Part shown: in pieces, positions 331-37,969 of the stretch | Numbering within the stretch: position 1 is the first letter of the stretch | How the letters are laid out: each line of letters opens with the position of its first letter | IMG/VR virus record: IMGVR_UViG_3300033121_001789 | Span: 45,853-109,852 of that record | Source of the DNA: a virus | Taxonomy: Duplodnaviria > Caudoviricetes | Strand: one strand, 5' to 3' | Length of the DNA: 64,000 nt | Position numbers and translations under genes: made by a program | The notes under the pieces: model-generated | Database searches by the model: none | The model's input: the letters and a program-made list of their open reading frames with translations, nothing else | Told to the model about the DNA's origin: nothing

Positions 331-633
331 TCAATTGATTATACCATCAATTTTTATATCTCTTTTATTAGCAGTTAGTTGTGGAAGATATAATATGGCT
401 AAATGACATGCCATAGAAAATGTATTACCTGAATGATCATTGCTAATTAAGGGCACTAATGATTTTTGATCATCCCAACTGGCCTTACTAAATGTAATGA
501 TCATATCTTTAGTCTGTAAAGTTTCAGCGATTAATATACCCTCAGAAATGGCGAATAAATTATATTTAGCTCCAAATCCACCATCTATATCAAATCCGAT
601 ATTTTTAAAAAATTCTAAATCTTCTTCTCTCAT
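331..633 (-). CDS. hypothetical protein with C-terminal RDxKI motif
   Basis: 100-aa ORF, ATGA-coupled to the polymerase gene; ends KRDIKIDGIIN. Confidence 0.7.
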   Translation of the reverse strand: MREEDLEFFKNIGFDIDGGFGAKYNLFAISEGILIAETLQTKDMIITFSKASWDDQKSLVPLISNDHSGNTFSMACHLAILYLPQLTANKRDIKIDGIIN

Positions 634-2135
634 AATTCAGCTTCAATTTGTTTTATTTCATCAAGAACTTTTTTGAGTTCTTCTTTTTTTGCCATCATGA
701 TATTTTTATTCTTCTTTCTGTCAGCATAGACATCATCTAACATTTTAAGTGTTGGTGAGTATCTTTTCTCAAAAACAACACCATTAACACAAACAACATG
801 TATAGATTTATCAATCTTTATCTTCTTTGATCCATTGATGCAATAGTCAGGATCATCCTCAATAGTAACACCAACAAATGTTTCTGGAGCAATAAAAAAT
901 TGCAATTGTGTAGTTGGGTATAATGATGCAAAATCATATATAACACACCACTTATTCATACCAACAACTGGATCTTTAACCCATCCACCAGCAATACCAT
1001 CACCAGCATCACGTACAGCATTTTCATCCTTAAAGAGTATTATATCCTCCATCTCACGGAAGCGATTTCTCAATACACCCTCGGTTATTGCTAACGATCC
1101 AAGTGCATTATTTATTTGAGAAACAATATCAACAACCTTAATTTGTGCTAAAGAAGATATAGCAAATATTATTGATATATAATTTCTTGACTCATGAATC
1201 TTTTGAACAAGAACGGAGTCAACTGCGTTGTAATACATAAATGTCTCAAAATCGTCTTCATATAATTTTTGCAAAGATCCTGCATATTTTATTTTCTCAA
1301 CACCAACCAATTTATTAGAAACATAATCTAATGATGATGATTCTTTAACTTTTATGGAAGTATCACATATTTCATATAATTGCATATAGTCAAATATCAT
1401 TCTATGTGCCGGAACTTCATAGTTAGTGGACCATATCTTATTCATTCGTTTGGTAAAAGATGATACGTTTGGATCTATTCTTATTTCCTGACCATTTACC
1501 CATTTAGTTATTTTTCTAGCTCTATTGACCAAATATAACCAGTCATATTGCAAGAAATTCCATCCAGTTATGAGAGGCATTTTTGGAACCATTTTATTAA
1601 AAAAAGACCAAACCATATCAAATTCATCATCATATTTAATGTATTTAAATTTATAATCAGAATCAAACTTTTTAAAATATTTATTAGTGTTTTCTCTAAT
1701 TCTATCTTGCATATCCTGTGGCATGTCTTTCAATCCCATTAATATGATTTTATCATCATAAACAACAGATATAGATAAAACTCTTGTTGGAGCAGTTTCA
1801 GCATCTGGGAAACCATCTATTATTTCAGTTTCAATATCCACAAAGTATATTTTGGGTAAATTAAAATCAAAAATTTCTTGTTTTTCTTTGGGTGGCAATT
1901 GATCTAAAAATTCATAAATTGAATATCTGTCAGGGTGATTAACTTCAATTTGCTTGACACACTTACCATCCCAAGATTTAAATTTTGGATGTCTATCTGG
2001 GTCATTAAAGTCACAAGTTATATATTTAAGTGGGTTTTCTAAAGCATAGTATTTTAATTTTATCTCACCGCTTTTATCAACATAACTAACAACTAACTTT
2101 TTTGTATTTGGTAAGTATTGTGTATCGACTAACAT
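630..2135 (-). CDS. family B DNA polymerase, N-terminal subunit (3'-5' exonuclease + palm motif A); split gp43-like
   Basis: ExoI DIETE, ExoII GWNFLQYD, ExoIII YNAVDS and motif A DFASLYP present. Ends in the fingers helix with no KxxxNSxYG or YGDTDS. Likely start MLVDTQ at 2135. Confidence 0.9.
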   Translation of the reverse strand: MLVDTQYLPNTKKLVVSYVDKSGEIKLKYYALENPLKYITCDFNDPDRHPKFKSWDGKCVKQIEVNHPDRYSIYEFLDQLPPKEKQEIFDFNLPKIYFVDIETEIIDGFPDAETAPTRVLSISVVYDDKIILMGLKDMPQDMQDRIRENTNKYFKKFDSDYKFKYIKYDDEFDMVWSFFNKMVPKMPLITGWNFLQYDWLYLVNRARKITKWVNGQEIRIDPNVSSFTKRMNKIWSTNYEVPAHRMIFDYMQLYEICDTSIKVKESSSLDYVSNKLVGVEKIKYAGSLQKLYEDDFETFMYYNAVDSVLVQKIHESRNYISIIFAISSLAQIKVVDIVSQINNALGSLAITEGVLRNRFREMEDIILFKDENAVRDAGDGIAGGWVKDPVVGMNKWCVIYDFASLYPTTQLQFFIAPETFVGVTIEDDPDYCINGSKKIKIDKSIHVVCVNGVVFEKRYSPTLKMLDDVYADRKKNKNIMMAKKEELKKVLDEIKQIEAEL

Positions 2136-2178
2136 ATTTATTTTACTAATAAAAATTATTTTGTTTAATATATAGATA

Positions 2179-3672
2179 ATGGATATTAAAAAATATAACA
2201 ATTTTCTAATTGATCAAAAATTATATGAAATAATAAATGAATCAATATTAAATGAATCAATGATTCATTATAAAGAAGAATTTAGAAAAGTATTAACTAA
2301 AATGAGTTCTCCAATATCTAAAGATATTTTAGACTTAGAAAATAAAGACATTAAAACAAATTTTAATCTTATCGACACATCAAAAGATGGATACTTATCA
2401 TTTATCTCCTCAAAAACTACTTTAAAATATAAAATAACTGATAATGATTGGACATATGAAGATTGGCCGGAATTATTCAGATCTGTTGGCGAAACTGAAG
2501 ATGAATATCCCACATTACCAGATGGGACTGTCGGTGAAATAATATCTATAATTAGTGATAAAAATTTTTCAGAAATGCCAAAAGATGGTAGAGAAATAGC
2601 TTATTTTCGATCAGATTCGGGTGAAATTTGTTTCATAGATAAAAGAGGTTTAGATTTAATAACCAAAGCAAATACACAAGAAGTAAAAATAGGAAGATTA
2701 GCATCACAACTATTACAGAATGTAAAAAATAAATATTCTGATAAAGAAATAGAAAATTTTGTCAATGAATTTAAATCAAGATTAGATATAATTCGAGATA
2801 AATTTCGACTATTTGAATTGGTAAGTGGAGATCAAATAAGACATTTTTATAATGAAAAACAATATGATACTAAAAAAATGGGACCTCTACACTCTAGTTG
2901 TATGAGATATCAAAAATGTCAAGTATTCTTTGGAATATACACGGATAATCCAAGCGTTTGTCAACTTTTAATACTTAAAAGTGAGGATGAAGAAGATAAA
3001 ATAGTCGGTAGAGCATTAATTTGGAAATTAATAGATGGTACTTATTTCATGGATAGAATCTACTATGTAAATGATTCACAAGTAAATCTATTTAAAGAAT
3101 ATGCAATATCAAAGGGATGGTGTTATAAAATTAGACAAGAATCAAGTGATTCAACCCCCGTAGAATTTAGTAAAGATGTTTTTTATACTGATGATATAAC
3201 AGTCAAATTAGAAAAATCTGTTTTCAAAAAATATCCGTACATGGATACTCTAAAATATCTAGATGAGGGCTCTAATATACTTTCAAATAACTCTAAATAT
3301 TCTGATATTGAATTGGAATCCACAGAAGGATCAAGGGGTGAAGACTGTGGTAGATGTGATGGGGAAGGGACTGTCGAGTGTCCAGAATGTGGAGGTGACG
3401 GGACTAGAGAATGTTATAACTGTTATGGTAATGGTACTGTTGATTGTATCGAATGTGATGATGGAAATATTGAGTGTGGAGAATGTGATGGAACTGGATA
3501 TAATGATGATGAAAAATGTGATAACTGTAAGGGATCTGGTGAGGTTGAATGCTCAAAATGTGAAGGAAGAGCTGATATAGAATGTGATAGATGTGATGGA
3601 AGAGGAGAAAGAACTTGTGGGGATTGTGATGGAGATGGTACTGTTTCTTGTCCAGAATGCAATGGAGACTAA
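2179..3672 (+). CDS. phage protein with SCM-containing domain and C-terminal array of about 10 CxxCxGxG zinc-finger repeats
   Basis: SSCMRY...GRALIW...MDRIY core followed by repeats CGRCDGEG, CPECGGDG...CPECNGD; no J-domain HPD. Confidence 0.75.
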   Translation: MDIKKYNNFLIDQKLYEIINESILNESMIHYKEEFRKVLTKMSSPISKDILDLENKDIKTNFNLIDTSKDGYLSFISSKTTLKYKITDNDWTYEDWPELFRSVGETEDEYPTLPDGTVGEIISIISDKNFSEMPKDGREIAYFRSDSGEICFIDKRGLDLITKANTQEVKIGRLASQLLQNVKNKYSDKEIENFVNEFKSRLDIIRDKFRLFELVSGDQIRHFYNEKQYDTKKMGPLHSSCMRYQKCQVFFGIYTDNPSVCQLLILKSEDEEDKIVGRALIWKLIDGTYFMDRIYYVNDSQVNLFKEYAISKGWCYKIRQESSDSTPVEFSKDVFYTDDITVKLEKSVFKKYPYMDTLKYLDEGSNILSNNSKYSDIELESTEGSRGEDCGRCDGEGTVECPECGGDGTRECYNCYGNGTVDCIECDDGNIECGECDGTGYNDDEKCDNCKGSGEVECSKCEGRADIECDRCDGRGERTCGDCDGDGTVSCPECNGD

Positions 3673-7343: not shown

Positions 7344-7649
7344 TTATAAAAGAATATCAATGACAATGTCTCTTTTTATTTGGACATCTATTGGATAGAA
7401 TTTTTCTATCTCTGTGATAATTTCTACTTCTTGTAAGGTATTTAATTTATGTGAAGCATAAATATATTTTTCTGATGCAAAACAAAAATCAACATAATAA
7501 ACATCCTTTGGATGTTTCAATAAATTTGGATTTGACCATTGCTTGGGTATGACATCTATAATTAACTGATTGTATATAAATCGGTTTTTATTTTCTGATA
7601 GTGAAAATCCGAGCTTAAATAGTATATTAAATAACTTACTCTTCTCCAT
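7344..7649 (-). CDS. hypothetical protein with C-terminal RDxxI motif
   Basis: ends KRDIVIDILL. Confidence 0.65.
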   Translation of the reverse strand: MEKSKLFNILFKLGFSLSENKNRFIYNQLIIDVIPKQWSNPNLLKHPKDVYYVDFCFASEKYIYASHKLNTLQEVEIITEIEKFYPIDVQIKRDIVIDILL

Positions 7650-8979: not shown

Positions 8980-9159
8980 ATGGGCGACTTAATTAAAAAA
9001 ACTACTTTGTCTGATGAGGAAATTTCCTTACTAAGAGAAAAATTTCTGGTTGAATATTCTAAGAAAAAAGGATGGAATCCTAAAGAATTATCAACAACAC
9101 AAATGTTAGAAATAGCTACTCAGAAAGAGTACAAAAATCCAGGTTTAATATTAGGATAA
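8980..9159 (+). CDS. 59-aa hypothetical protein
   Basis: Manual translation MGDLIKKTTLSDEEISLLREKF...KNPGLILG; below the ORF-track cutoff. Confidence 0.65.
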   Translation: MGDLIKKTTLSDEEISLLREKFLVEYSKKKGWNPKELSTTQMLEIATQKEYKNPGLILG

Positions 9160-10208: not shown

Positions 10209-10751
10209 TTAATTAATATTTCCTAATAAATTGTCTAATTTAAAATCCCTAATATATTGTGTTTTAAGAGATTCTAAGTCGGTTTCCCAACCATCTACTA
10301 ATGACTTAATCATATAATTTTTATTGGATAAAAAGTTACCATCAGTAATAATAGTATCAAATTGATATATTGTATCGAATCTACAAGTAGCATCAAATAC
10401 TCTACCCTTTTTTAAAAATCCATCTCTTTTCTCACGAATAAAATAATCATGAGTATCTTCAATAATAAATATTATATCAATATTTGGCACAATTTTTCTA
10501 ATTTCCCTTAAATACCATTTAACGTCGTATGGGTAGATAATTGCGATAATGTCAATATTATAAAGATGATCTTTTATTTCATCCAACACCTTATTAATTT
10601 GAATGTTTTTTGTAACTCCGATATCTTTTCCGATACCAAGTATATTCTTGCCTAAAAGTTCTTGAAAATCAAGAACTCTTTTTATGCCGTATATAGAAGA
10701 GGCATCAGTTTTTACAAAAAGATTATTAGATTTGAGTTTTATCACAAACAA
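10209..10751 (-). CDS. hypothetical protein with C-terminal RDxKL motif
   Basis: ends IRDFKLDNLLGNIN. Confidence 0.65.
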   Translation of the reverse strand: MFVIKLKSNNLFVKTDASSIYGIKRVLDFQELLGKNILGIGKDIGVTKNIQINKVLDEIKDHLYNIDIIAIIYPYDVKWYLREIRKIVPNIDIIFIIEDTHDYFIREKRDGFLKKGRVFDATCRFDTIYQFDTIITDGNFLSNKNYMIKSLVDGWETDLESLKTQYIRDFKLDNLLGNIN

Positions 10752-12144: not shown

Positions 12145-15100
12145 ATGAAAAACCTCAGACTATTTGAAGAAATGGATACGGAAATAGGGGCAGAAAAGCC
12201 AAAACAAAAAAATTCCGAGAAAACAAAGACTCCAATTTTAGATGCTATTGGAAAAGATTTAACAAAATTAGCGGCTGAAGAAAAATTAGAGCCAGTACAA
12301 GGGAGAGAAGAAGAGATTCAAGAAGTACTTCTAATATTAGGTAGGAAAACAAAAAATAATCCAGTTATAATTGGTGAGCCAGGAGTTGGTAAAACTGCCA
12401 TAGTTGAGGGAATTGCTCAAATGATAGCTAGCAAAAAGTGTCCTCGTGCAATTCAAGGCAAAAGGATTATATACGTTGATATGGGATCTTTAATTGCTGG
12501 AGCTTCTAAACAAGGTGAATTTGAAATGCGTATTAAATCGCTGTTAGAGGAATTAGAAAAAAATAAAGATATACTATTATTTATAGATGAAATTCATATG
12601 ATGGTCAATCCAAATATGTCAATTGATGCTGCAAACATGTTTAAACCAGCTTTGGCTCGTGGTGATATGAGATTGATTGGAGCTACAACTCTAAATGAAT
12701 TTAGAAATTCAATTGAGAAAGATGGTGCACTTGACAGGAGATTTCAAAAAGTTATTATTGAAGAACCAACAAATGAACAAACATTAGCAATTTTAAATCG
12801 AATTAAAAGTAGATATGAAGACTATCATTTAGTTAAATATACTGATGACGCAATACTAGCATGTGTTAAATTAAGTGGGAAATACATAACTGATAGATTT
12901 TTTCCAGATAAGGCTATCGATTTAATGGATGAGGTTGGATCTAAAGCTAGATTATTAGCTCCGGACAATGAGCCTGAGGAAATAGTTAAGTTGGCAAAAA
13001 AAGTTGACGAATTAAAAGCTGAGATCATGGTAAAGACAAAGGCTCAGGATTACCAAAAAGCTGTAGAATTAAGACAAGTTGAAAAAAGACTATCTGAAGA
13101 ATTAGCAGATAAAAGAAGTAAATTAGATATACCAAAGGTCGAAGTAAATAAAAATGATGTTGCCAAAATAATATCTAAAAAAATAGGAGTACCAGCTGAG
13201 AAAATAACATCTGATGAAGGAGAAAAACTTCTAAAAATGGAAGATGATTTAAAATTACAAATAATAGGACAAGATGAAGCGGTTTCCAAAATATCTAAAT
13301 GCATTCGTAGAAGTCGAGCTGGACTAAGAGACCCAAAAAAACCAGCAGTATTTTTATTCTTAGGATCAACAGGGACAGGTAAATGTCATGGAAGAGGGAC
13401 AAAAATACTAATGTATGATGGATCTATTAAAAATGTTGAAGATATTAAAGTAGGAGATCAATTAATGGGTGACGATTCTAAACCTAGAAATGTTCTTTCA
13501 TTAGCCACAGGCAAAGACAATATTTACAAGATAAAATATAAATCTGGTAGCTTTACTTGCAATTCTGAACATATTTTATCACTAAAAGAAACTGGAAAAT
13601 ATAACATAATCAATATACCATTAAATGAATATTTGAAAAAAAATAAAACATTTAAACACACACACAAATTATGGAGCACTAAAGTTGAATTTGAAGAATC
13701 AAAAATAACAATTGATCCTTATATGATCGGACTTTGGCTAGGAGATGGTGATAAAAATAGAGTTTCTATAACAACTGCTGATTCTGAGATAGTGAACTAT
13801 TTGGAAAATACAGCTAAAAATTATAACCTAAAAGTTTATAAAAACAATTTGAAAAATAACAAGAGTGATGTATATTGTCTAACTGGAGAAAACTGGACAA
13901 ACAATAAAAATGAATTACTAAATGAATTTAGGAATTATGGACTAATAGACAAAAATAAAAATTATACCAAATTCATACCCGATATTTATCTACATAATTC
14001 AATAGAAAATAGGAAAAAATTGTTATCTGGACTAATTGATAGTGATGGATATATTTCCAACAATTGTTATCTAATAACCACAAAATATAGTGAACTAGCT
14101 GATCAAATAGTTTATCTATGCAAATCTCTTGGATATATGGCAACAAAGTCAAAAAAAGATGTTAAGAAATATCCAAAAAATACTTATTATAATATAAACA
14201 TATCTGGAGATTTTGATTTAAATTCTTATATTCTTTTAGATAGGAAAAAACACAAATCAAGAAATCAAAAAAAGAATGTTAATTTATTCTCCTTTGATGT
14301 AGAACATATCGGATATGATGACTACTTTGGATTTGAATTAGATGGCAATCATCTATATTTGTTGCAAGATTTTGTTGTAACACATAATACACATACCGTA
14401 AAAACATTAGCTAAATATTTATTTGGATCTGAAGATGCGATGATAAGATTTGATATGAGTGAGTATGGAGAGAAACATAATGTTTCGAGATTAATTGGCT
14501 CCCCTCCAGGATATGTAGGATATGGTGAAGGAGGACAACTAACCGAGAAAGTTAGAAGAAAGCCATATTGTATAATATTATTAGATGAGTTAGAAAAAGC
14601 TCACCCAGAAGTATTAAATGTATTACTACAAGTTTTTGATGATGGACAATTAACTGATGGACAAGGAAGAAAAGTTAATTTCAAAAATACTATTATAATA
14701 ATGACATCCAATATAGGAAGTTCGGCAGTCAAAGATATGAGAATGCCAATGGGGTTCAATGCATCGAAAATTTCTAGAAACGATAATATGAAAGATCTAA
14801 TCAAAAAAGAATTAAAGAAAAAATTAGCTCCAGAATTTATTAATAGAATCGATGATATAATTATATTCTCACAATTACCTAAAGAAAGTATATACAAAAT
14901 TATTGATATTGAAATAAATAAATTATCAAAAAGAGTTGAAGAAATGGGTTATCATATCAGTATAACTGACAATGTTAGAAAATTAATAATGGATAATGGT
15001 TATGATGAGGAAATGGGGGCTAGACCGCTTAAAAGAGCTATTGAAACACTAATAGAAGATCCTATATCTGAAGAAATTTTAAGAGGTGCTATAAAAGATG

Positions 15101-15231
15101 CCATAAATGTTGACTACGATCCACAAACTAAAAATTTAAGTATTAATGGGAATGTTATTAAAGAATCTTTAAAATTTATAAAGAAATTCAGAATGATAAT
15201 TGAGAAAAAATTTCAGAAATTTAAATACTAA
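12145..15231 (+). CDS. ClpC/ClpE-like Hsp100 AAA+ ATPase lacking the N-domain, intein-containing
   Basis: NBD1 GEPGVGKT/LFIDEIH/ALDRRFQ, UVR-like M-domain, NBD2 GSTGTGK[intein]T, SRLIGSPPGYVGY, LDELEK, PMGF loop, GARPL. Confidence 0.93.
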   Translation: MKNLRLFEEMDTEIGAEKPKQKNSEKTKTPILDAIGKDLTKLAAEEKLEPVQGREEEIQEVLLILGRKTKNNPVIIGEPGVGKTAIVEGIAQMIASKKCPRAIQGKRIIYVDMGSLIAGASKQGEFEMRIKSLLEELEKNKDILLFIDEIHMMVNPNMSIDAANMFKPALARGDMRLIGATTLNEFRNSIEKDGALDRRFQKVIIEEPTNEQTLAILNRIKSRYEDYHLVKYTDDAILACVKLSGKYITDRFFPDKAIDLMDEVGSKARLLAPDNEPEEIVKLAKKVDELKAEIMVKTKAQDYQKAVELRQVEKRLSEELADKRSKLDIPKVEVNKNDVAKIISKKIGVPAEKITSDEGEKLLKMEDDLKLQIIGQDEAVSKISKCIRRSRAGLRDPKKPAVFLFLGSTGTGKCHGRGTKILMYDGSIKNVEDIKVGDQLMGDDSKPRNVLSLATGKDNIYKIKYKSGSFTCNSEHILSLKETGKYNIINIPLNEYLKKNKTFKHTHKLWSTKVEFEESKITIDPYMIGLWLGDGDKNRVSITTADSEIVNYLENTAKNYNLKVYKNNLKNNKSDVYCLTGENWTNNKNELLNEFRNYGLIDKNKNYTKFIPDIYLHNSIENRKKLLSGLIDSDGYISNNCYLITTKYSELADQIVYLCKSLGYMATKSKKDVKKYPKNTYYNINISGDFDLNSYILLDRKKHKSRNQKKNVNLFSFDVEHIGYDDYFGFELDGNHLYLLQDFVVTHNTHTVKTLAKYLFGSEDAMIRFDMSEYGEKHNVSRLIGSPPGYVGYGEGGQLTEKVRRKPYCIILLDELEKAHPEVLNVLLQVFDDGQLTDGQGRKVNFKNTIIIMTSNIGSSAVKDMRMPMGFNASKISRNDNMKDLIKKELKKKLAPEFINRIDDIIIFSQLPKESIYKIIDIEINKLSKRVEEMGYHISITDNVRKLIMDNGYDEEMGARPLKRAIETLIEDPISEEILRGAIKDAINVDYDPQTKNLSINGNVIKESLKFIKKFRMIIEKKFQKFKY
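13384..14388 (+). mobile_element. intein (335 aa) with LAGLIDADG homing endonuclease inserted in Walker A of NBD2
   Basis: GK|CHGRGTKILMYDG ... IGLWLGDG ... LSGLIDSDG ... VVTHN|T. Confidence 0.95.
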
Positions 15232-16521: not shown

Positions 16522-16833
16522 TTAATCTTTTATTAACTTATTCAACTTTCTATGACGTAAATAAGCCTGATGTATTTCATTAAACTCACTAAGAGAATCT
16601 GGATATATGATTTCACCTTCCTTTCTGTAATAAATTCTATGTTTATGAATATAAACGCCTTTTGTTGAATCTGATTTTACTCTTCGAAAGTAATACCTTT
16701 TTTTGAATATTACCAACTTTCTTATTTTATCATATCGACTTAAAAAAGAAAAAATTTCATAAATTCTAGAATCATATTTGGTTTGCGCATAAACTGGTTG
16801 ACGAAGTTGTGAGAAAGGTTTAATGTCTTCCAC
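16522..16833 (-). CDS. hypothetical protein with C-terminal RxxKL motif
   Basis: ends LRHRKLNKLIKD. Confidence 0.6.
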   Translation of the reverse strand: MEDIKPFSQLRQPVYAQTKYDSRIYEIFSFLSRYDKIRKLVIFKKRYYFRRVKSDSTKGVYIHKHRIYYRKEGEIIYPDSLSEFNEIHQAYLRHRKLNKLIKD

Positions 16834-23777: not shown

Positions 23778-24182
23778 TCAAAATAAAAGTTCTTTTAAAA
23801 TGAAGTTTCTCTTAACCTCACCAGGTAATATGTCTAATATTCCTCTCTTACTGACTATTAACTTATTATCTCTACTATAAGAACTATAAATAGTTTTCAA
23901 TCTATCTCTTTTTGTACTATTACAATCTTCCATCCATATTGTTGATAGTGAATGATTGACCAATAACGCCCAAAATATGTAGTTATTCTCATAATTCATA
24001 ACCCAGAAAGAATTGGACTTTGGATGTTCCTTAATGACTTCTTTTTTATTTCTATTAGAATCATATTTTATCTCTGTAATATCCAATACCATGGTTGGGT
24101 AATGATCAATCGGATGATTACCTGGTTTATGAAAAGATGTTTTCTTAAACCCCAAAGTTTTTAATTTCTTATGAATATTCAT
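23778..24182 (-). CDS. hypothetical protein with C-terminal RxxIL motif
   Basis: ends KRNFILKELLF; TATATTTG upstream. Confidence 0.65.
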   Translation of the reverse strand: MNIHKKLKTLGFKKTSFHKPGNHPIDHYPTMVLDITEIKYDSNRNKKEVIKEHPKSNSFWVMNYENNYIFWALLVNHSLSTIWMEDCNSTKRDRLKTIYSSYSRDNKLIVSKRGILDILPGEVKRNFILKELLF

Positions 24183-24231: not shown

Positions 24232-24477
24232 ATGTATAAAGATACAACTCCAACATTCAATTCCGGAAATCGAAAGATTGTCAATTATAAAGACTTTATT
24301 CAAAATATTGATAAAGAAAAAGAAGAATTGAAAACTGTTAAAAAGTCATTCTCTAAAAATGAATTAGAGATTGGTTTAAAACAGCATAAATATAAATATA
24401 ATAAAGTCACTCACAAATTAGATGACTTGACACCAGACGAAGTAGATGATAAATTAGATAACTTAGAAGAGAATTAA
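24232..24477 (+). CDS. hypothetical protein
   Basis: 81-aa ORF after AAATATATA. Confidence 0.6.
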   Translation: MYKDTTPTFNSGNRKIVNYKDFIQNIDKEKEELKTVKKSFSKNELEIGLKQHKYKYNKVTHKLDDLTPDEVDDKLDNLEEN

Positions 24478-24842
24478 AAATCATAACTCTCATCTAATAA
24501 ATTATTAATTCTCAATTGTCTATTTACCTTACCAGTTATATCACCAAGTGATTCTATCTTTGATAGATATGCCTCATCTTTTGTATCTATCCACTTCTTT
24601 AAAATCTTATTATTTTTAAAATACCAAGAATTAAATTCATCAAAAACAATATCTAAAGCTGAAAGAAAAGTATAATCAGCAGTTAAAGGATGTGTGTAAA
24701 TTAAGACAAAAACATCCTCAGTGAGTGAAAGTTCCTCTGAAGAAAAATCCTCATATATAATGGTGATATCTCGACCCCAGCTCAAATTCAGTGTAAATCC
24801 CAATTTGATTATCCTGTCCAGTTTTGAAACGTCCATCTTCAT
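24474..24842 (-). CDS. hypothetical protein with C-terminal RxxRI motif
   Basis: ends NRQLRINNLLDESYDF. Confidence 0.65.
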   Translation of the reverse strand: MKMDVSKLDRIIKLGFTLNLSWGRDITIIYEDFSSEELSLTEDVFVLIYTHPLTADYTFLSALDIVFDEFNSWYFKNNKILKKWIDTKDEAYLSKIESLGDITGKVNRQLRINNLLDESYDF

Positions 24843-25524
24843 TTACTATATAGTCAATTTTACGATCTCTTTGCTCTGAAATATATTCATTATACCCATA
24901 CATATAGTCATCCTCAAAGATAAATATAACCTCCGGATAGAAAACCTCAAACTTTAAATCACAAGTAATTGATGTATATCCGGTAACTGATCCAGGTCTA
25001 AAAGTATCATTAAAATGTTGTATATTTGATATATCAACATTAATAGACTTAAATGATACTATGTGATTTGACTTCCAAGTCTCAAATGGATTAACATAGA
25101 CATCAATATAATCAAATTTTCCTATCGGATAAATCGTTTTACCATTCAAATTACTTAGCGAATTATGTGTGAAATGTAAAGAATCTTGTAAATCTGCTGC
25201 TATTCTAGCTCCAGAAACAATTTTCGAGTTTTTGTCTAATGTAGGTATTAAATATAAATTATCAAATTTAGAAGGATTGTGTGATTTTCCTCTAAAATCT
25301 AAAAATCTCTTCTTACCATGATTGAAAATAGATGCAAATATCTTTTTCTCAATACACTGTGAAATTTCATCAATCAAAATTTGATTGAAATATGATTCAA
25401 CATCAATATTAAAAAATTGAGAAGCTACAGGATTAGAAACTGAAACTTGTACTCTTTCGGGCATAACCCCTGATACAATTGATTTATTAAAACAAGAAAA
25501 CTTAAAGTTATCACTTGATATCAT
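24751..25524 (-). CDS. truncated, divergent paralog of the major capsid protein
   Basis: NQILIDEISQCIEKKIF, IVSGARIAADL and IYPIGKFDYIDVYVNPF align by eye to gp23 of this window. Confidence 0.65.
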   Translation of the reverse strand: MISSDNFKFSCFNKSIVSGVMPERVQVSVSNPVASQFFNIDVESYFNQILIDEISQCIEKKIFASIFNHGKKRFLDFRGKSHNPSKFDNLYLIPTLDKNSKIVSGARIAADLQDSLHFTHNSLSNLNGKTIYPIGKFDYIDVYVNPFETWKSNHIVSFKSINVDISNIQHFNDTFRPGSVTGYTSITCDLKFEVFYPEVIFIFEDDYMYGYNEYISEQRDRKIDYIVNEDGRFKTGQDNQIGIYTEFELGSRYHHYI

Positions 25525-29721: not shown

Positions 29722-30089
29722 TGGTGGAGGCGGAGGGTTCGAATCCTCGTCTTCCTCAGTTAGATACAACCAATCATTTACAAGCTTAGTTAATTTTTCT
29801 AAACTAACAAAATAATAAATTTTTTCGACTCAAAAAATATTTATAAAAAACTATCACGATTTTTATCTGTTGGATTCAGAGGTAAATTTCTTGAAATATC
29901 AATTAAGCCATTTCAAACTCATTCACCATGAGTAAGTTGTTTTGTAGGGCAGCTACTAAATCTTCACTGGTTCCCACTTCGTTTGTTTTGCCGATTACGA
30001 CATTCGCCATTTAATTTTTAATCGGTTATATGACAATCCGATACTTGCTCAATTACACCTAGGACCGCGAATCAATACATTACGCCCCC
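29722..30089 (-). ncRNA. ssrA: tmRNA, 368 nt; tag (A)GKTNEVGTSEDLVAALQNNLLMVNEFEMA*
   Basis: 5' GGGGGCG pairs with 3' CGCCUCC-ACCA with G3:U. T-arm GAGG-AUUCGAAC-CCUC. pk1-like pseudoknot (UCGG/CCGA; UUGUCAU/AUGGCGA). Resume context UAAUC-GGC 11 nt later. Tag ORF 29992-29903. Confidence 0.92.
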
Positions 30090-33138: not shown

Positions 33139-34884
33139 TTAGTTTAAGTATTGTCTTGTGTCAGTAACAACAATTGTCATATACTGTTTTTGTGGGAAGA
33201 ATCCTACATCAGCAAGAGCGTATCTTGAACGTAACAACATTCTTGGTGCGAAAGTTGCTTCGGAAATTACACTAATAGACTGTGCCATTAAGTAAGGTAC
33301 GAAGATAAGACCTGGTTGGTCTGGGTTATTCTTTCTACCCAATACGATTCTGTTGTCGCTATATCTCATATATGGATCAACGTAGATTTGGATATCACCT
33401 ATTGTTCCAACTGGATATAATTGTCCTTGACCGTTAACTTTAGATTTAACCGGGTTAATTGTATAACCAGATATATCCATAAGAGCTGCCGCAAGACCTC
33501 CATTTGTAATAGCGAATTGAGCTGGACCAACTCTACCTTCAGTAGCTATATAGTTAGAAGCGTGAGCCATCTTAGTTATAAGCTTTCTCTGAACAGCGTG
33601 AGTTGTTTCACCACCGATACCACCACCGTATGTAACATAGTTTGTGTCTAAGTCAAAGATAGTAGATGCAGTTGTACCAGGAACAGTTGTACCTAAACTT
33701 GCGTTTAAAGGTGCATTTTGTCTGTTAGATTCACCAAGTGCAAATATTTTTTGAACGATTTGTTTAGAAATTGTTTGAGACAATTCATTTACAAGGATAG
33801 ATTCCATCTTTTGAACGATATCCATACCTGTATTAGCTTTAATGTCTTCAATTTCTGTTCTTCTTAAAGCAGTTGATACTTCAATTGTACCCACAGCTAT
33901 TGATTTAGAAGAAATTTTTGGACCAATAACACCTGAATAAGTATTATCATCTGTTTGTCTATCCATTGGATAGTCTCCTGATGAAAGAGATGCTGCCCAG
34001 TTTGCAGAGAAACCTGGAAGTTGATCTTCAAGTGCAGATACTAATTCAATTGTAGCAGAAGCAGTTACACCAACAGTACCAATATAGTTGATTTGAGCAA
34101 CCATAGATGCAGTAGCATTGAATGTATTATACTCTGGAGCAAAATTAAATGGACTTGTGTTAGCACCACCATAAACATTTTGAGAGTTTGCTTGTCTGTA
34201 AGCTCTGAACATTGGAGCTCCATCAATTCTTGAGAATCCTAAGAATTCAAGAACGTTTGTTTTTGTACTTGGTTCAGTTGAAACAAGTGCTGTAGACGAG
34301 CTGATATTAGCAACGAATACTCTTGCTCCTTGGATACCACCTGTTGTTAGTGTTCCAGATGCTGCAGTAACCTCAGTAGTTAAAGCTGCTTTCATAGCTG
34401 CTAATGCACCAGCACCAGCTGCAGTGATTTTAAATACTTGTGGACGACCAGTTGTTCCACCATTTGTTAAATCATCATATTGAAAATCAATATAAAGAAG
34501 GTCGATTTTTGGACCTGGAGTTGGTTTTACAGCAACTAAATCAAGACCAATTGTTTGAGCTGCAATTTTCATCGCAACTGGCAAAAGATTTTGACCTAAA
34601 TCACCAGAACCAAGAACACCAGCAGCACCACCGTATTGAGTTGGAAGTGAACCTCCACCAAAACCAGCACCACCACCAAGGTAACCAGGCAAACCAGCTA
34701 CTGAAGGTGCTACTACTGAGCCCATACCAGCTGTTGTTGCGTTAGCGTAAGCGTTCTCATTGATTGAGTGAAATTCAGCATATTCTGCTAACCATTCAAC
34801 TCTGTCAGAAGATACACCCATGTTTTCCAATACAGGACCCCATTTCTTAACCGCTTTTTGTTTGTCTATTCTAATGTGTGACAT
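33139..34884 (-). CDS. gp23: major capsid protein (T4 gp23-like)
   Basis: KKWGPVLE, IGLDLVAVKP, ILVNELSQTI, VGTI..IQIYVDPY, GLIFVPY, TFAPRMLLRSRYAL; strong codon bias. Confidence 0.95.
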   Translation of the reverse strand: MSHIRIDKQKAVKKWGPVLENMGVSSDRVEWLAEYAEFHSINENAYANATTAGMGSVVAPSVAGLPGYLGGGAGFGGGSLPTQYGGAAGVLGSGDLGQNLLPVAMKIAAQTIGLDLVAVKPTPGPKIDLLYIDFQYDDLTNGGTTGRPQVFKITAAGAGALAAMKAALTTEVTAASGTLTTGGIQGARVFVANISSSTALVSTEPSTKTNVLEFLGFSRIDGAPMFRAYRQANSQNVYGGANTSPFNFAPEYNTFNATASMVAQINYIGTVGVTASATIELVSALEDQLPGFSANWAASLSSGDYPMDRQTDDNTYSGVIGPKISSKSIAVGTIEVSTALRRTEIEDIKANTGMDIVQKMESILVNELSQTISKQIVQKIFALGESNRQNAPLNASLGTTVPGTTASTIFDLDTNYVTYGGGIGGETTHAVQRKLITKMAHASNYIATEGRVGPAQFAITNGGLAAALMDISGYTINPVKSKVNGQGQLYPVGTIGDIQIYVDPYMRYSDNRIVLGRKNNPDQPGLIFVPYLMAQSISVISEATFAPRMLLRSRYALADVGFFPQKQYMTIVVTDTRQYLN

Positions 34885-34921: not shown

Positions 34922-37042
34922 TTAAAGGTTTTTAAATCTCTCCATGATTGCAGTTAATTCTTTATCAGATATTTTATCTTCTTGAATTAATGCGTCATGT
35001 GCTACTAATTTCTTAGTAACTGATTCGTTTTTCTTGAGATTTCTAGTCAACCAGAAATGTTCAACCTGAGATTCAGTTTTGATAACATCTTCTGGATAAA
35101 GTCTAGCTTGTGAAAGTATTGACTTTCTAGCATTCTCATTTAATTGATTCCAAATTGGCTTGATGTTTTCAGGCATCAATCGGATCACTCTTTCTTCAAG
35201 AGTTTCGTTTTTAGAACTTAACGCCTCAGAAATTAACTTCAATACATCTTGTGTACTAAAGAAACTTTTTTCGCTTACATAAAGTTTAACAGTTTCTTGT
35301 TCTTCACTTGTTAGTGAGTAGAAACTATCAACCTGAGATTTGTTTAAAAACTTTAAAAAGTGTAGATCGGATGTTTCAGCGGCTTTTCGTTTTTTAGCCT
35401 CTTCGATCAATTTATCAATAGATTGTGATAATTCACTATCAGATTCACCAGATGTTTCAAATTCTGGTTCTTCTTCGTTTCCATAGTCTTCACCATGTAC
35501 TTCTTCTTCCTCTTCAGAAACAACATCATCTGTCATTTCAACCGGAGTTTCTTCAGCTGTAGGAACGTCTGTTTCATCATTCCATGCTTTTTCTTCTTCT
35601 TCCTCTTCCTCATCAACTACGTCAAAACCTGCTGATTGTAGTGTAGGGAATTTTTCTTCTCCTTCCAAATATTCATTAATTTTTCCACTACCATTTAATT
35701 TCTCAGAAATTAAACCAGCATAAGAAATTGATTTGTCAAGATTTTCTGCGATATATTCAGAATATGCAATATTATCATCGAGATTTTCTGCGATATATTC
35801 AGAATATGCAATGTTTCCTTCAACGTGTTCTGCTAAATACTCAGAATATGCAATAGAATTATCTAAATGTTCTGCTAAGTATTCACCATAAGAAATTGAT
35901 TTGTCAAGATTTTCTGCGATATATTCAGAATATGCAATGTTTTTGTCAAGATTTTCTGCGATATATTCAGAATATGCAATGTTTTTGTCAAGATTTTCTG
36001 CTAAATATTCACCATAAGAAATTGATTTGTCAAGATTTTCTGCTAAATATTCACCATAAGAAATTGATTTGTCAAGATTTTCTGCGATATATTCAGAATA
36101 TGCAATGTTTTTATCAAGATTTTCTGCGATATATTCAGAATAGTTAATAGCCTTTTCAAGGTTTTCTGCTAAATAATCATTATGCTTGATAAGCTTTTCT
36201 GCTGTAGATTTTAATGAGTTGTTTTCTTTAACAACAACTTGAACTTTATCTGCTAAATAGTCTAAGTATTTAACTATTTGTGAATTGGTTTTATTCAATT
36301 CTTCATAATACTCAAGTAATTGATCCATTTTTTTAGGGGTAAGATTTCCCTTTGTCATAGCTGACTTAACTTCCTTTTTAGTGGAAGCTAATTCATTAAC
36401 CAAATATTTAGAATAATCAGTTAATTGTTTTTTTGTTACGAAGTCGTTAGCGTTCATATTAAATAAATCATTAATTTTTGAATCATCAGACATTTCATAA
36501 ATTCTAAAATTAGCCTTGTTGTTATAACCCAAAGATTCGTTAAGAGTCTTCATTGTCATTTTAGCTGAGGCAAATCCAGGATCTGCTACGATGTCATATG
36601 TGAATAATTTTTTCAAAGTAACTGTTCCATCAGATTCGGTAACTCCCGCTGCTCTTGACGAAACAAATATTGGACAGCCATCATTTACAAGAGCTTTAGC
36701 TTCTTTACCCCAATAGGTATTTAAAAGTCTTATTTCCCCCTCAACTCTATTAGACTCTTTAATAAAAGATGCCTTTTTAATTATGTGTGAGGATCTTGAT
36801 AATGATGTATCAAATACATCAGGATGGTCAAATTCACCATATACAACACCGAAGTCATTCATTCTCTCATTTAATTCATTTAAACAAGGAAGAAATTTCT
36901 CAGCAGTATAAACTCTATCATTTCGATTTTTTACATCGAATTCAGTGAATACTCCACCTAAAATATATTTATCATTTTGACTATCGTTTTCATTAATTGA
37001 TAACGGGTTCGTCATGTTTTCTACAATTAGGACTGATTTCAT
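34922..37042 (-). CDS. gp21: fused prohead protease (gp21) + core/scaffold (gp22-like)
   Basis: KNRNDRVY, GEFDHP, VSSRAAG, YDIVADPGF, then coiled coil, repeats and acidic linker; likely start MKSVLIVE. Confidence 0.9.
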   Translation of the reverse strand: MKSVLIVENMTNPLSINENDSQNDKYILGGVFTEFDVKNRNDRVYTAEKFLPCLNELNERMNDFGVVYGEFDHPDVFDTSLSRSSHIIKKASFIKESNRVEGEIRLLNTYWGKEAKALVNDGCPIFVSSRAAGVTESDGTVTLKKLFTYDIVADPGFASAKMTMKTLNESLGYNNKANFRIYEMSDDSKINDLFNMNANDFVTKKQLTDYSKYLVNELASTKKEVKSAMTKGNLTPKKMDQLLEYYEELNKTNSQIVKYLDYLADKVQVVVKENNSLKSTAEKLIKHNDYLAENLEKAINYSEYIAENLDKNIAYSEYIAENLDKSISYGEYLAENLDKSISYGEYLAENLDKNIAYSEYIAENLDKNIAYSEYIAENLDKSISYGEYLAEHLDNSIAYSEYLAEHVEGNIAYSEYIAENLDDNIAYSEYIAENLDKSISYAGLISEKLNGSGKINEYLEGEEKFPTLQSAGFDVVDEEEEEEEKAWNDETDVPTAEETPVEMTDDVVSEEEEEVHGEDYGNEEEPEFETSGESDSELSQSIDKLIEEAKKRKAAETSDLHFLKFLNKSQVDSFYSLTSEEQETVKLYVSEKSFFSTQDVLKLISEALSSKNETLEERVIRLMPENIKPIWNQLNENARKSILSQARLYPEDVIKTESQVEHFWLTRNLKKNESVTKKLVAHDALIQEDKISDKELTAIMERFKNL
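35700..36180 (-). repeat. about 11-12 tandem 42-bp (14-aa) coding repeats Y[SG]EY[IL]AE[NH]LD[KND][NS]I[AS]
   Basis: Visible in both DNA and translation. Confidence 0.95.
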
Positions 37043-37211
37043 TAATTGATTTGTCTTTATTTTGATATATATATCCAACCGTGAAAAACCGAAAAAATAA
37101 ATGGTGGATTTTTTATAAGATACACTAAAACACCATATTTTATTAGACTTGAAGAATATTTAAAATGGAGTGTGTACAAATTAATATATAATTAAAATTT
37201 TATGGTTTTTT

Positions 37212-37565
37212 ATGATAATAACCCGCGAAATTAAAATTAAAGTCATTGAATCGAATTATCAATATCTCGATGATATGGGTTATGATATATCTATTGGTGA
37301 TACACTAAGTATACCAGTTGAATTATTATCCAAAGGATCACATCACAAAATAAAATGCAAATGTGATGGATGTGGGGTAGAAAAAGATGTTATTTTTAAA
37401 AATTATGTCAAGTATGATAATAAATGGGGTTTTTATTATTGTAGAAAATGCTCTGAAAAGAAAAGAAAGGAATCTTTACAAAAAACTTATGGGGTTGAAT
37501 ACCCAATTCAAAATAAGAATATTTATAAAAAAATGAAACTAACTTTATCTGAAAGAAAAAAATAG
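37212..37565 (+). CDS. Zn-finger DNA-binding fragment of a homing-endonuclease-type protein
   Basis: KGSHHKIKCKCDGCG...CRKC...KTYGVEYPIQ; no nuclease domain. Confidence 0.6.
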   Translation: MIITREIKIKVIESNYQYLDDMGYDISIGDTLSIPVELLSKGSHHKIKCKCDGCGVEKDVIFKNYVKYDNKWGFYYCRKCSEKKRKESLQKTYGVEYPIQNKNIYKKMKLTLSERKK

Positions 37566-37579
37566 TGTAAATTTACACG

Positions 37580-37969
37580 ATGAAATCCACAATAGTAGAG
37601 ATAGACAAAAAATATTCTAAACTTGAGAATTTTAAAAAATTATTTGATAACGAAAAATCAGTTAAACGTGATTTTATAATTTCCAATCTACTAGGCGAAT
37701 CCGAAATTCAAATTATAACATCAATTTTGTGTGCGTTCTCAACTGACGAATATACAACTTTAATAACAGACACCGCATTAGTCATTAAAAAGATGAAATT
37801 TGATGTCGATAGTAATTATAATATTCTAAAATTGAATGTATATTTTGATATACTAAATAATAGAAATGGAAAATTAGTTAAAGAAATGATGAAGTATTCT
37901 GAATTAAAAATAAAACCAAAAATAGAACCATCTAGTTTCAATGTATTGGGATTTTATATATCCTTTTAG
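37580..37969 (+). CDS. hypothetical protein (internal RDxxI motif)
   Basis: KRDFIISNLLGE. Confidence 0.6.
   Translation: MKSTIVEIDKKYSKLENFKKLFDNEKSVKRDFIISNLLGESEIQIITSILCAFSTDEYTTLITDTALVIKKMKFDVDSNYNILKLNVYFDILNNRNGKLVKEMMKYSELKIKPKIEPSSFNVLGFYISF

What the first reader, a model, noticed from the sequence alone, without database searches (positions are those of the whole stretch)
331..37969. Shared C-terminal peptide tag R-[DN]-x-[KI]-[IL]-x-x-[IL]-[IL] on unrelated small proteins
Seen at protein ends: KRDIKIDGIIN* (331-633), KRDIVIDILL* (7344-7649), IRDFKLDNLLGNIN* (10209-10751), LRHRKLNKLIKD* (16522-16833), KRNFILKELLF* (23778-24182), NRQLRINNLLDESYDF* (24474-24842). Also QRDRKIDYIVNE near the end of 24751-25524 and internal KRDFIISNLLGE (37580-37969). 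The bodies are otherwise dissimilar, and none carries the N-terminal CTS-like motif. Inference: a portable amphipathic docking helix recognised by one hub, such as a protease/unfoldase degron, a localisation signal or an oligomerisation tag. This would be a phage-internal protein-addressing system I do not recognise as characterised.
Basis: partly seen in the sequence, partly recalled or inferred. Interest (0 to 1): 0.8.

Follow-up and report, generated by a model that had tools for sequence, protein, structure and literature searches.

The report
Shared C-terminal address tag in huge phages
About one gene in ten of this huge phage and its closest relatives, mostly small, fast-changing proteins of unknown function, ends in the same short peptide, which looks like an address label read by a partner that is still unknown.

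Summary
The window is part of a 110-kb IMG/VR contig of a Mahaphage-type huge phage. All eight peptides exist.

Enrichment: in the last 16 residues the pattern R-x3-h-x2-h-h occurs in 12 of 158 contig ORFs, against 1.1 expected when only those 16 residues are shuffled. The figures are 127 of 1111, 128 of 1083 and 95 of 1052 ORFs in the 642-, 635- and 636-kb relatives, against 8-11 expected. Inside proteins the pattern is at chance level.

Nature of the tag:
- Codon use at the tag equals genome usage, so selection acts on the peptide.
- The bodies are unrelated: 319 tagged proteins fall into 261 BLAST groups.
- A few bodies are known domains, such as riboflavin kinase, BtpA and DUF6011.
- The flavour shifts by lineage: RDxKIDxIL, RKxIIxELL, RTKLIDKML.
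- The tag is mutually exclusive with a common N-terminal motif.

So it is a portable, selected C-terminal label. Its reader was not identified. A phage ClpC-type unfoldase is my leading but weak candidate, because 75 of the 80 IMG/VR loci kept (of 181 found) that encode a similar unfoldase show no tags nearby.

This scan has noted analogous tags, with other sequences, in other large phages. Five literature searches found no description.

The parts
331..633 (-). Tagged gene, 100 aa. Tag RDIKIDGII is at nt 337-363, with 1 residue after it.
   Evidence: no Pfam or PHROG hit
7344..7649 (-). Tagged gene, 101 aa. Tag RDIVIDILL is at nt 7347-7373 and ends at the stop.
   Evidence: only one homologue (92% identity) among 5.8 billion clusters
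10209..10751 (-). Tagged gene, 180 aa. Tag RDFKLDNLL is at nt 10224-10250, with 4 residues after it. It is the only tagged window gene with a tagged orthologue in LR756502.1.
   Evidence: in a 37%-identical homologue R, D and the L-G after the tag are kept
16522..16833 (-). Tagged gene, 103 aa, GTG start. Tag RHRKLNKLI is at nt 16531-16557, with 2 residues after it.
23778..24182 (-). Tagged gene, 134 aa. Tag RNFILKELL is at nt 23784-23810, with 1 residue after it.
   Evidence: its LR745206.1 orthologue ends ...RDFILADLLNGK
24474..24842 (-). Tagged gene, 122 aa. Tag RQLRINNLL is at nt 24495-24521, with 6 residues after it. It overlaps the next entry by 92 nt.
24751..25524 (-). Paralogue of part of the major capsid protein, 257 aa. 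Tag RDRKIDYIV is at nt 24844-24870, followed by a further 30 residues. The orthologues in LR756502.1 and LR745206.1 stop 5 and 6 residues after their tags.
37580..37969 (+). ORF of 129 aa with an internal tag-like peptide, RDFIISNLL, at nt 37667-37693. No homologue in the relatives. Its status is unresolved; it is one of the roughly 10% of profile hits that are internal.
12145..15231 (+). Candidate reader only (inferred, not shown). ClpC-type two-ring AAA+ unfoldase without the N-domain. It keeps the ClpP-docking M-G-F loop and is interrupted by an intein with a LAGLIDADG endonuclease.
   Evidence: presence/absence; counter-evidence

Best explanation
The peptide is a portable C-terminal address label: a short linear motif, probably one amphipathic helix with an invariant Arg in its hydrophobic face. 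It has been acquired by, and is kept on, about a tenth of the proteins of this phage lineage. These are mostly small, soluble, fast-evolving proteins outside the structural module.

Shown:
- It is selected as a peptide.
- It is locked to the C-terminus.
- It sits on unrelated bodies.
- It is retained in orthologues.
- Its sequence flavour changes by lineage.
- It never co-occurs with the common N-terminal motif.

Inferred: one trans-acting partner, from the phage or its Bacteroidota host, reads the label and handles all these proteins as one class.

This unfoldase lacks the usual adaptor-binding N-domain. The label would then act in one of two ways. It could be a degron that clears early effector proteins on schedule. 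Or it could be a tether, in the manner of the SspB tail (recalled), that plugs small target-binding proteins into the unfoldase.
For: Enrichment and position:
- Enrichment holds with composition-preserving controls.
- It is confined to the C-terminus: 189 of 198 profile-defined tags end within 7 residues of the stop, and 132 of 198 within 2. Internal counts are at expectation.

Protein-level selection:
- Arg codons at position 1 are AGA 192, AGG 44 and CGT 19 of 267, against genome usage of 0.75, 0.13 and 0.06. The same holds for D, K, I and L.
- The tag is present whether the next gene is close and co-directional (216 of 1168), far (53 of 451) or convergent (77 of 678).

Portability:
- 319 tagged proteins fall into 261 BLAST components.
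- No second shared motif in the bodies: best p = 3e-5 over 5662 tests.
- Tags sit on Flavokinase, BtpA and DUF6011 domains and on capsid-protein fragments.
- The contig's DUF6011 protein lacks the tag that both orthologues carry.

Retention: 45 of 49 regex-tagged LR756502.1 proteins with a reciprocal best hit in LR745206.1 keep a tag. Whole-alignment identity averages 42%.

Lineage flavours.

Mutual exclusion with the N-terminal motif: 1 protein with both against 10.6 expected (80-120 aa) and 1 against 14.9 (120-200 aa).

For the Clp reading:
- The unfoldase is present in all four tag-bearing complete genomes and in this contig. It is absent from tag-less LR756500.1, Lak-B5 and MA9V-2.
- It keeps the ClpP loop and lacks the N-domain.
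- ClpP genes are present in three of the four tag-bearing genomes.
Against: - No reader was identified, and nothing here shows binding or instability.
- The presence/absence match rests on what is probably one evolutionary event. 58 other LR756502.1 proteins share the pattern.
- Of the 80 IMG/VR loci kept (of 181 found) that encode a 45-58% identical unfoldase, only the five closest carry tags in the 10-kb flanks. The other 75 loci have 21 hits, about what chance gives, and 13 of those are one repeated protein. The unfoldase is therefore not sufficient.
- LR756501.1 has tags but no ClpP, and its unfoldase seems to keep an N-domain start (my reading of the sequence, not tested).
- The phage's own tmRNA tag does not resemble the motif.
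- Up to 7 mostly polar residues follow the motif, unlike classical terminal degrons.
- Tagged enzymes such as riboflavin kinase are odd candidates for scheduled destruction.
- The helix is inferred, not modelled.
Confidence: 0.4

Rival explanations
1. Virion packaging signal. The label docks cargo to the inside of the procapsid (scaffold, capsid protein or portal), so that many small effectors are packed and injected with the DNA. This would be a C-terminal counterpart of the T4 capsid-targeting sequence, the P22 scaffold's coat-binding helix or encapsulin cargo peptides (all recalled).
For: - The head is T4-type: gp23-like capsid protein, gp21-like protease and portal.
- Two capsid-protein fragments carry the tag.
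- A fast-evolving small-protein arsenal is what injected anti-defence proteins look like.
- One address per protein would explain the exclusion from the N-terminal motif.
- In LR756504.1, 15 of 52 tags are preceded by h-x-E, the T4 protease site type (site type recalled).
Against: - Only 13 of 127 and 10 of 128 tags in the two closest relatives have that site.
- The N-terminal motif resembles the T4 signal more and would already fill this role.
- Over 100 cargo species, including metabolic enzymes, is a lot.
- No tagged gene lies in the window's structural module from 25.5 to 64 kb, apart from the internal match.
Confidence: 0.15
2. No reader at all. The peptide is a generic self-association or stabilising helix (dimeriser, or a cap) that makes young, marginally stable proteins functional.
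For: - It is short and easy to evolve in an AT-rich genome.
- Tagged proteins are strongly depleted in known domains: 3 Pfam families in 100 tagged proteins against 40 in 100 length-matched untagged proteins.
- The charge pattern +,-,+,- could pair between helices.
Against: - Nine to thirteen residues are too few for a stable coiled coil.
- The invariant Arg lies in the middle of the hydrophobic face (my helical-wheel reasoning).
- Concerted flavour shifts between lineages and the strict exclusion from the N-terminal motif are not expected for a generic stabiliser.
- The constraint to the last 0-7 residues is not needed for self-association.
Confidence: 0.15
3. Relic of common descent. All tagged genes belong to one huge, very fast-diverging multigene family whose only surviving conserved part is the C-terminal helix.
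For: - There are small tandem paralogue clusters: sizes 5, 4, 2, 2 in LR756504.1, and arrays in LR756501.1.
- In those genomes the conserved stretch extends about 8 residues upstream.
- Tagged genes are concentrated in arrays at the record ends: 28 of 95 ORFs at 600-640 kb of LR756502.1.
Against: - 123 of 127 and 127 of 128 tagged bodies are BLAST singletons within their genome.
- Lengths run from 57 to 731 aa.
- Tags sit on unrelated Pfam domains and capsid fragments.
- An orthologue trio has and lacks the tag.
- No other shared motif was found.
Confidence: 0.1
4. Sliding-clamp docking motif (PIP-like spacing D-x-x-h-x-x-h-h).
For: - The spacing resembles a PIP box (recalled).
- The position is C-terminal.
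- A gp44-like clamp loader is in the window.
Against: - There are no aromatic residues.
- Separate, conserved ...LDFLF(N/D) tails of the T4 clamp-client type (recalled) end another protein in all three close genomes.
- One LR756502.1 protein carries LDFLF followed by the tag, so the two are distinct signals.
- The clients are proteins of unknown function, not replication proteins.
Confidence: 0.05
5. Nucleotide-level signal (promoter, terminator or translation-coupling region) that only happens to translate into a similar peptide.
For: Tagged genes are somewhat more frequent when a co-directional gene follows within 30 nt (18.5% against 11-12%).
Against: - Synonymous codons vary as in the genome at large.
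- 130 of 346 tagged genes have no close co-directional successor.
- The backward DNA control gives 3 against 43 matches.
Confidence: 0.02

Closest known systems
C-terminal recognition signals of AAA+ proteases and their adaptors (ssrA and MuA-type ClpX signals; the ClpX-binding tail of SspB). Recalled, not tested.
   Same: A short peptide at the extreme C-terminus, transferable between unrelated proteins, read by one machine. The phage encodes a ClpC-type unfoldase and ClpP.
   Different: The sequence is different and longer (9-13 residues, probably helical, with an invariant Arg). Up to 7 residues may follow it. About 10% of a viral proteome carries it. No evidence of degradation or binding.
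Capsid-targeting sequence of T4 internal proteins, and encapsulin cargo-loading peptides (recalled)
   Same: A terminal address peptide on unrelated cargo, in a virus with an HK97/T4-type head. Encapsulin peptides are also C-terminal.
   Different: The T4 signal is N-terminal and is removed at an h-x-E site. Encapsulin peptides are Gly-rich and extended. Here a separate N-terminal motif exists and never accompanies the tag.
PRANC/F-box-like C-terminal module of poxvirus ankyrin proteins (recalled)
   Same: Logic only: a large, diversified viral protein set shares a short C-terminal module that plugs variable bodies into one hub.
   Different: PRANC is a domain of about 30-40 residues on one repeat family and targets a eukaryotic ligase. 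Here the bodies are unrelated and the hub is unknown.
Other lineage-specific C-terminal tags noted by this scan in large phages, and found here in relatives: DPYGEExW on 40 LR756501.1 proteins
   Same: The same phenomenon: many unrelated small phage proteins end in one peptide that differs between lineages.
   Different: The sequences are different. None has an identified reader. Those notes are unchecked AI notes, not publications.

Membership tests
AAA+ protease C-terminal degron (ssrA/MuA type) | Lies at the extreme C-terminus with an accessible end | tested here: met
   189 of 198 tags end within 7 residues of the stop, and 132 of 198 within 2
AAA+ protease C-terminal degron (ssrA/MuA type) | The last residues themselves carry the signal (non-polar ...LAA or basic RRKKAI; recalled) | tested here: not met
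   The conserved block is followed by 0-7 variable, mostly polar residues. The phage tmRNA tag is unlike it.
AAA+ protease C-terminal degron (ssrA/MuA type) | Confers unfoldase-dependent instability when transplanted | not testable with these tools
   Needs reporter stability assays
Sliding-clamp binding motif (T4 gp45 clients, PIP box) | Consensus with paired aromatic residues, on replication or transcription proteins (recalled) | tested here: not met
   The tag is aliphatic only. The clients are of unknown function. A distinct LDFLF tail is present elsewhere, and once next to the tag.
T4-type capsid-targeting sequence | N-terminal, about 10 residues, ending in an h-x-E prohead-protease site (recalled) | tested here: not met
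   The tag is C-terminal. h-x-E sits just upstream in 1 of 12, 13 of 127, 10 of 128 and 15 of 52 tags.
Encapsulin cargo-loading peptide | C-terminal peptide on cargo of an HK97-fold shell | tested here: inconclusive
   The tag is C-terminal and the capsid is T4/HK97-type. But every tailed phage has such a shell, and binding was not tested.
Encapsulin cargo-loading peptide | Gly/Ser-rich extended consensus (recalled) | tested here: not met
   Gly is 0-2.3% and Pro 0-0.5% across positions -2 to +9
Single paralogous protein family | Detectable homology of the bodies | tested here: not met
   261 BLAST components among 319 proteins. No shared body motif. Different Pfam domains. Remote (profile or fold) homology was not tested.
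Known Pfam, PHROG or PDB family containing the tail | Significant profile match | tested here: not met
   No Pfam hit at E<=1 for the 8 window proteins. A profile of 100 tails against PDB gave a best E of 0.56.

The most novel reading that the evidence does not exclude
The largest known phages run a two-label protein addressing code. About a tenth of their proteins carry an N-terminal label and another tenth a mutually exclusive C-terminal label. The C-terminal label plugs a large, rapidly renewed arsenal of small effector proteins into the phage's own N-domain-less ClpC-type unfoldase. The effectors would then either be destroyed on schedule or serve as adaptors that feed host targets to the protease. 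The label and its reader co-evolve, which would explain why each lineage has its own flavour and why sister lineages use quite different tails.
Probability: 0.12. Interest if true: 0.9.

Novelty: new variant of a known kind. Interest (0 to 1): 0.72.

Why it matters
- Most genes of huge phages have no known function. A label shared by roughly 100-130 of them per genome sorts this dark matter into one functional class and gives an experimental handle: a peptide of about 13 residues that can be used as bait.
- If a reader exists, finding it would reveal a virus-encoded protein-sorting or turnover system.
- It would also give a transferable tag for Bacteroidota.
- Different tags in sister lineages, and in other large phages noted by this scan, suggest a general and undescribed feature of large-phage biology.

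Tried and rejected
- DNA-level explanation: rejected (and the backward-pattern control).
- Composition artefact: rejected.
- Shared N-terminal L-x-x-L-G-F. I thought I saw it in four window proteins. It is not enriched: 8 of 267 against 22 of 1315, p = 0.14.
- HicA-like or helix-extended-helix resemblance: no Pfam support.
- Weak DUF2639 hit (E = 0.015): dropped as below threshold.
- tmRNA link. Rfam finds the tmRNA at 29722-30089 (41.7 bits, below the gathering score of 47) and ARAGORN does not. My hand reading of the tag frames shows no R-x3-h-x2-h-h motif.
- Hsp70 as reader. It fits five huge-phage genomes, but Lak-B5 has Hsp70 and no tags.
- ClpP does not follow the tag.
- Gene neighbourhood of the unfoldase. 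A tagged gene lies directly upstream in two genomes only.
- PDB profile search of 100 tails: nothing.
- Homologue searches for two tagged window proteins gave 1 and 3 relatives, too few for profiles.
- Literature. Five full-text searches (listings and abstract starts only) found no description of such a tag. So did three passages of PMC7162821 ('C-terminal' occurs 0 times in its main text). Supplements were not consulted and could hold relevant annotation.
- Limits of the census. ORFs were called mechanically (longest ORFs of at least 40 aa, greedy). Denominators therefore include some spurious ORFs, and percentages are lower bounds.
- Rows I regard as chance matches were kept in the counts. 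Examples are window 51919-52785 and the ORF at window coordinates -35552 to -35379 upstream of the window.

Full report
WHAT THE WINDOW IS. The window is bases 45,853-109,852 of a 109,852-bp IMG/VR virus record with 28% G+C. CheckV estimates it as 20% complete. Its 1920-aa protein is 48% and 47% identical over 99% of its length to the uncultured phages LR756502.1 (642 kb) and LR745206.1 (635 kb). It is about 34-35% identical to LR756504.1 (636 kb) and LR756501.1 (735 kb). These four sizes are those of the four largest genomes of Al-Shayeb et al. 2020. That paper places them in the 'Mahaphage' clade with predicted Bacteroidetes hosts (PMC7162821; three passages seen). The head genes are T4-like. 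The major capsid protein is at 33139-34884, a prohead protease with a long C-terminal extension at 34922-37078, and the portal at 37966-39687.

THE OBSERVATION. Whole-protein shuffles give 0.21 and 0.013, and 0 of 300 shuffles reach the observed values. A looser regex finds 7 in the last 20 residues against 0.06. Four further tagged genes lie upstream of the window on the same contig.

The general pattern R-x3-h-x2-h-h (h = I, L, V, M) then gives 12 observed against 1.1 (maximum 4 of 200 shuffles). In the window itself 6 of 81 ORFs carry a terminal tag. One more carries it 30 residues from the end, and one carries it internally. All terminal tags lie between 331 and 25524. None lies in the structural module beyond 25.5 kb.

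IT IS A PROPERTY OF THE LINEAGE. I fetched the complete records of four relatives and most of two others. The general pattern occurs in the last 16 residues as follows:
- 127 of 1111 ORFs of LR756502.1, against 7.7 expected.
- 128 of 1083 of LR745206.1, against 7.4.
- 95 of 1052 of LR756504.1, against 6.2.
- 21 of 1192 of LR756501.1, against 6.4.
- 3 of 760 of LR756500.1, against 4.2.
- 6 of 320 of Chryseobacterium phage MA9V-2, against 2.3.
- 3 of 556 in the first 400 kb of Lak-B5 read with TAG as sense, against 3.1.

Internal occurrences equal expectation in every genome. It gives 49 against 0.2 and 54 against 0.2 in the two closest genomes. A 19-column profile trained on the contig and the first 300 kb of LR756502.1 finds 84 C-terminal and 9 internal hits of at least 8 bits in LR745206.1, which played no part in its training. 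A degenerate DNA pattern with the tool's built-in backward control gives 43 against 3 and 46 against 4 in the same two genomes.

ANATOMY.
- In the contig and its two closest relatives the consensus is [K/h]-[S/Q]-x-h-R-D-x-K-[I/L]-[N/D]-x-I-L, often followed by Gly or a polar residue.
- A variant ends ...L-G-I: 46 against 4.7 and 34 against 4.4.
- LR756504.1 uses [F/Y]-x-T-h-x-E-[H/Y]-R-K-x-I-I-x-[D/E]-L-[L/I].
- LR756501.1 uses K-N-x-K-R-T-K-L-[I/M]-D-K-M-L-N.
- The Arg and the three hydrophobic positions are common to all.
- Of 198 profile-defined tags, 132 end 0-2 residues before the stop and 189 within 7.
- Across positions -2 to +9, Pro is 0-0.5% (background 3.0%) and Gly 0-2.3% (background 5.9%). 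Gly rises to 7-9% at +10 to +12.
This fits a single helix with a C-cap, but it is an inference.

SELECTION ACTS ON THE PEPTIDE. Codons at the conserved positions follow genome-wide synonymous usage. For Arg the counts are AGA 192, AGG 44 and CGT 19 of 267, against genome fractions of 0.75, 0.13 and 0.06. Asp is GAT 117 against GAC 14, with a genome fraction of 0.87 for GAT. Tags occur whether the next gene follows closely on the same strand (216 of 1168), follows at a distance (53 of 451), or is convergent (77 of 678). A promoter, terminator or translation-coupling signal is therefore excluded as the cause.

THE BODIES ARE UNRELATED, AND THE TAG IS PORTABLE.
- With the tail removed, 319 tagged proteins from four genomes fall into 261 BLASTP components (E < 1e-3). 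Within LR756502.1, 123 of 127 are singletons. Within LR745206.1, 127 of 128 are.
- No gapped tripeptide is enriched in tagged bodies after correction: best p = 2.9e-5 over 5662 tests.
- The N-terminal L-x-x-L-G-F that I thought I saw is not enriched.
- The 8 window proteins have no Pfam hit at E <= 1.
- Of the 100 longest tagged proteins (of 190 that could be referenced), 3 hit Pfam at E <= 1e-4: Flavokinase, DUF6011 and BtpA. One hundred length-matched untagged proteins hit 40 families. PHROGs recognises 5 families in the tagged 100.
- The riboflavin-kinase domain occupies residues 2-128 of a 214-aa protein that ends in the tag.
- The contig's DUF6011 protein lacks the tag that its orthologues in both close relatives carry.
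- Window gene 24751-25524 is a paralogue of part of the capsid protein. Its orthologues stop 5 and 6 residues after the tag, whereas here the frame runs on for 30 residues into the next gene.
- Tagged proteins are small (medians 103-114 aa against 138-159), mostly without hydrophobic segments (25 of 319 against 210 of 1740), and slightly more acidic.

CONSERVATION. Between LR756502.1 and LR745206.1, 36 of 101 profile-tagged proteins have a reciprocal best hit. For all ORFs the figure is 443 of 1111. Median identity is 40.7% for the tagged set against 53.5% for all pairs. With the regex definition, 45 of 49 partners keep a tag. The 4 exceptions include hydrophobic chance matches. Identity is 61% over the nine tag positions, 49% at the five positions the regex leaves free, and 42% over the whole alignments. 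A 37%-identical metagenomic homologue of window gene 10209-10751 keeps R, D and the L-G that follows the tag.

A SECOND LABEL, NEVER ON THE SAME PROTEIN. A motif [K/R]-x-[F/Y]-[E/N]-[E/S] within the first 13 residues, noted by the first stage in another finding, occurs in 105 of 873 ATG-started ORFs of LR756502.1. A control window at residues 31-43 gives 8. In LR745206.1 it occurs in 79 of 835. Pooling the contig and the three tag-rich genomes, proteins with both labels number 1 against 10.6 expected in the 80-120 aa class (p = 9e-5). They number 1 against 14.9 in the 120-200 aa class (p = 1e-6). The two cases are doubtful matches. This argues that the C-terminal peptide is one of two alternative labels rather than a neutral structural feature.

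WHO READS IT? This was not solved.

I screened LR756502.1 proteins that are present in the three other tag-bearing genomes and absent from LR756500.1 and MA9V-2. That gave 62 proteins, and 58 after removing those found in Lak-B5. The list is rich in protein-handling genes:
- The ClpC-type unfoldase (window 12145-15231).
- An M20-like peptidase (30141-31940; weak match to peptidase T).
- Paralogues of 9151-10197.
- A family ending in a DnaJ-type cysteine-rich finger (2179-3672; E = 0.005-0.01).
- Several proteins of unknown function (42131-43411, 20403-22206, 15221-16423).

The unfoldase matches B. subtilis ClpC from residue 156 on, so it lacks the N-domain. It keeps an M-G-F tripeptide aligned with the V-G-F ClpP-docking loop of ClpC, and it carries an intein. 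It is present in all four tag-bearing genomes and absent from LR756500.1, Lak-B5, MA9V-2 and pT24. pT24 was not tested for tags.

Against it:
- The pattern is probably a single evolutionary event.
- LR756501.1 has no ClpP.
- Of the 80 IMG/VR loci kept (of 181 found) that encode a 45-58% identical unfoldase, only the five closest (58%) have tags in the flanks. The other 75 loci have 21 hits, about what chance gives, and 13 of those are one repeated protein.

Other candidates:
- Hsp70 fits five genomes but is present in tag-less Lak-B5.
- The clamp is unlikely. A conserved 133-aa protein ends ...KLDFLF(N/D) in the contig and both close relatives. A 1469-aa protein ends ...FDFLFS. One protein has LDFLF followed by the tag.
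- The phage tmRNA tag does not contain the motif (hand translation).

OTHER TAGS IN RELATIVES. An unbiased search for gapped tripeptides enriched in the last 12 residues recovers the R-tag in LR756502.1. In LR756501.1 it reveals a second, sharper tail, D-P-Y-G-E-E-x-W, on 40 of 1192 ORFs (0.8 expected). It never occurs together with the R-tag and is absent from the other genomes. The 75 tag-less IMG/VR loci share a Gly/Trp tail (about 21 of 1297 distinct ORFs). LR756500.1 shows an N-A-x-D-F-G-like tail (about 12 of 692). Earlier notes of this scan describe analogous tags with yet other sequences in other large phages (unchecked AI notes). Lineage-specific C-terminal labels thus look like a recurrent feature of large phages.

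VERDICT. The peptide is a portable, peptide-level, C-terminus-locked label on about a tenth of the proteome of one branch of the largest known phages. Being a label read in trans is the best-supported reading (my confidence about 0.4 together with the Clp guess; the Clp guess alone about 0.2-0.25). Packaging, self-association and common descent remain open. I found no description in five literature searches or in the main text of the genome paper. Supplementary files were not consulted.

Noticed in passing
window 2179-3672, 12145-15231, 39729-40058, 51438-51935 and others; relatives LR756502.1 and LR745206.1: An N-terminal motif [K/R]-x-[F/Y]-[E/N]-[E/S] in the first 13 residues occurs on 105 of 873 and 79 of 835 ATG-started ORFs of the two close relatives. 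Control windows give 8 and 6. It is mutually exclusive with the C-terminal tag. The ClpC-type unfoldase and the zinc-finger family carry it.
   Followed up: partly
LR756501.1 (loci L084-L093, L135-L166), e.g. record 352240-352509: A second, very sharp C-terminal tail, D-P-Y-G-E-E-x-W, usually followed by 1-3 residues, on 40 of 1192 ORFs (0.8 expected). It never occurs with the R-tag and is absent from the contig and the other genomes.
   Followed up: partly
IMG/VR loci L193-L267; LR756500.1 (L094-L103, L127-L134, L147-L151): Other enriched C-terminal patterns. G-x-G-x3-W / G-W-W-D-like tails occur on about 21 of 1297 distinct ORFs near ClpC-like genes. N-A-x-D-F-G-like tails occur on about 12 of 692 ORFs.
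   Followed up: no
window 12145-15231 (+): ClpC-type unfoldase lacking the N-domain. It has an intein (Hint plus LAGLIDADG endonuclease, residues about 414-748) inserted in the second AAA ring. The relatives' genes have no intein.
   Followed up: partly
contig upstream of the window (window coordinates -19277 to -18876); LR756502.1 267443-267844 and 534749-539158: Proteins ending ...KLDFLF(N/D) or ...FDFLFS. These resemble T4 clamp-client tails (recalled). One LR756502.1 protein (L003:20176-20607) has LDFLF directly followed by the R-tag.
   Followed up: partly
window 24751-25524 and 24474-24842 (-): The capsid-protein-fragment paralogue runs 30 residues past its tag and overlaps the next tagged gene by 92 nt. 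Orthologues stop right after the tag, so the stop may have been lost or the assembly may carry a frameshift.
   Followed up: partly
window 2179-3672 (+): A 497-aa protein ending in a DnaJ-type cysteine-rich finger (weak PDB matches). Several LR756502.1 proteins on the list match this window region.
   Followed up: partly
window 630-2201 (-): The family B DNA polymerase ORF holds only the exonuclease domain and the start of the polymerase domain. The rest is not adjacent. Other first-stage notes on related genomes say the same.
   Followed up: no
window 29722-30089 (-): tmRNA found by Rfam at 41.7 bits, below the gathering score of 47 (E = 4.9e-15), and not found by ARAGORN.
   Followed up: partly
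Lak-B5 MK250024.1 393258-393836 and 395338-396558: The Hsp70 gene matches in two pieces about 1.5 kb apart, suggesting an insertion such as an intron or intein.
   Followed up: no
LR745206.1, locus L033:5768-7966: A 732-aa phage protein with SprB and PKD repeats and a CHU_C type IX secretion signal domain. This fits a Bacteroidota host.
   Followed up: no
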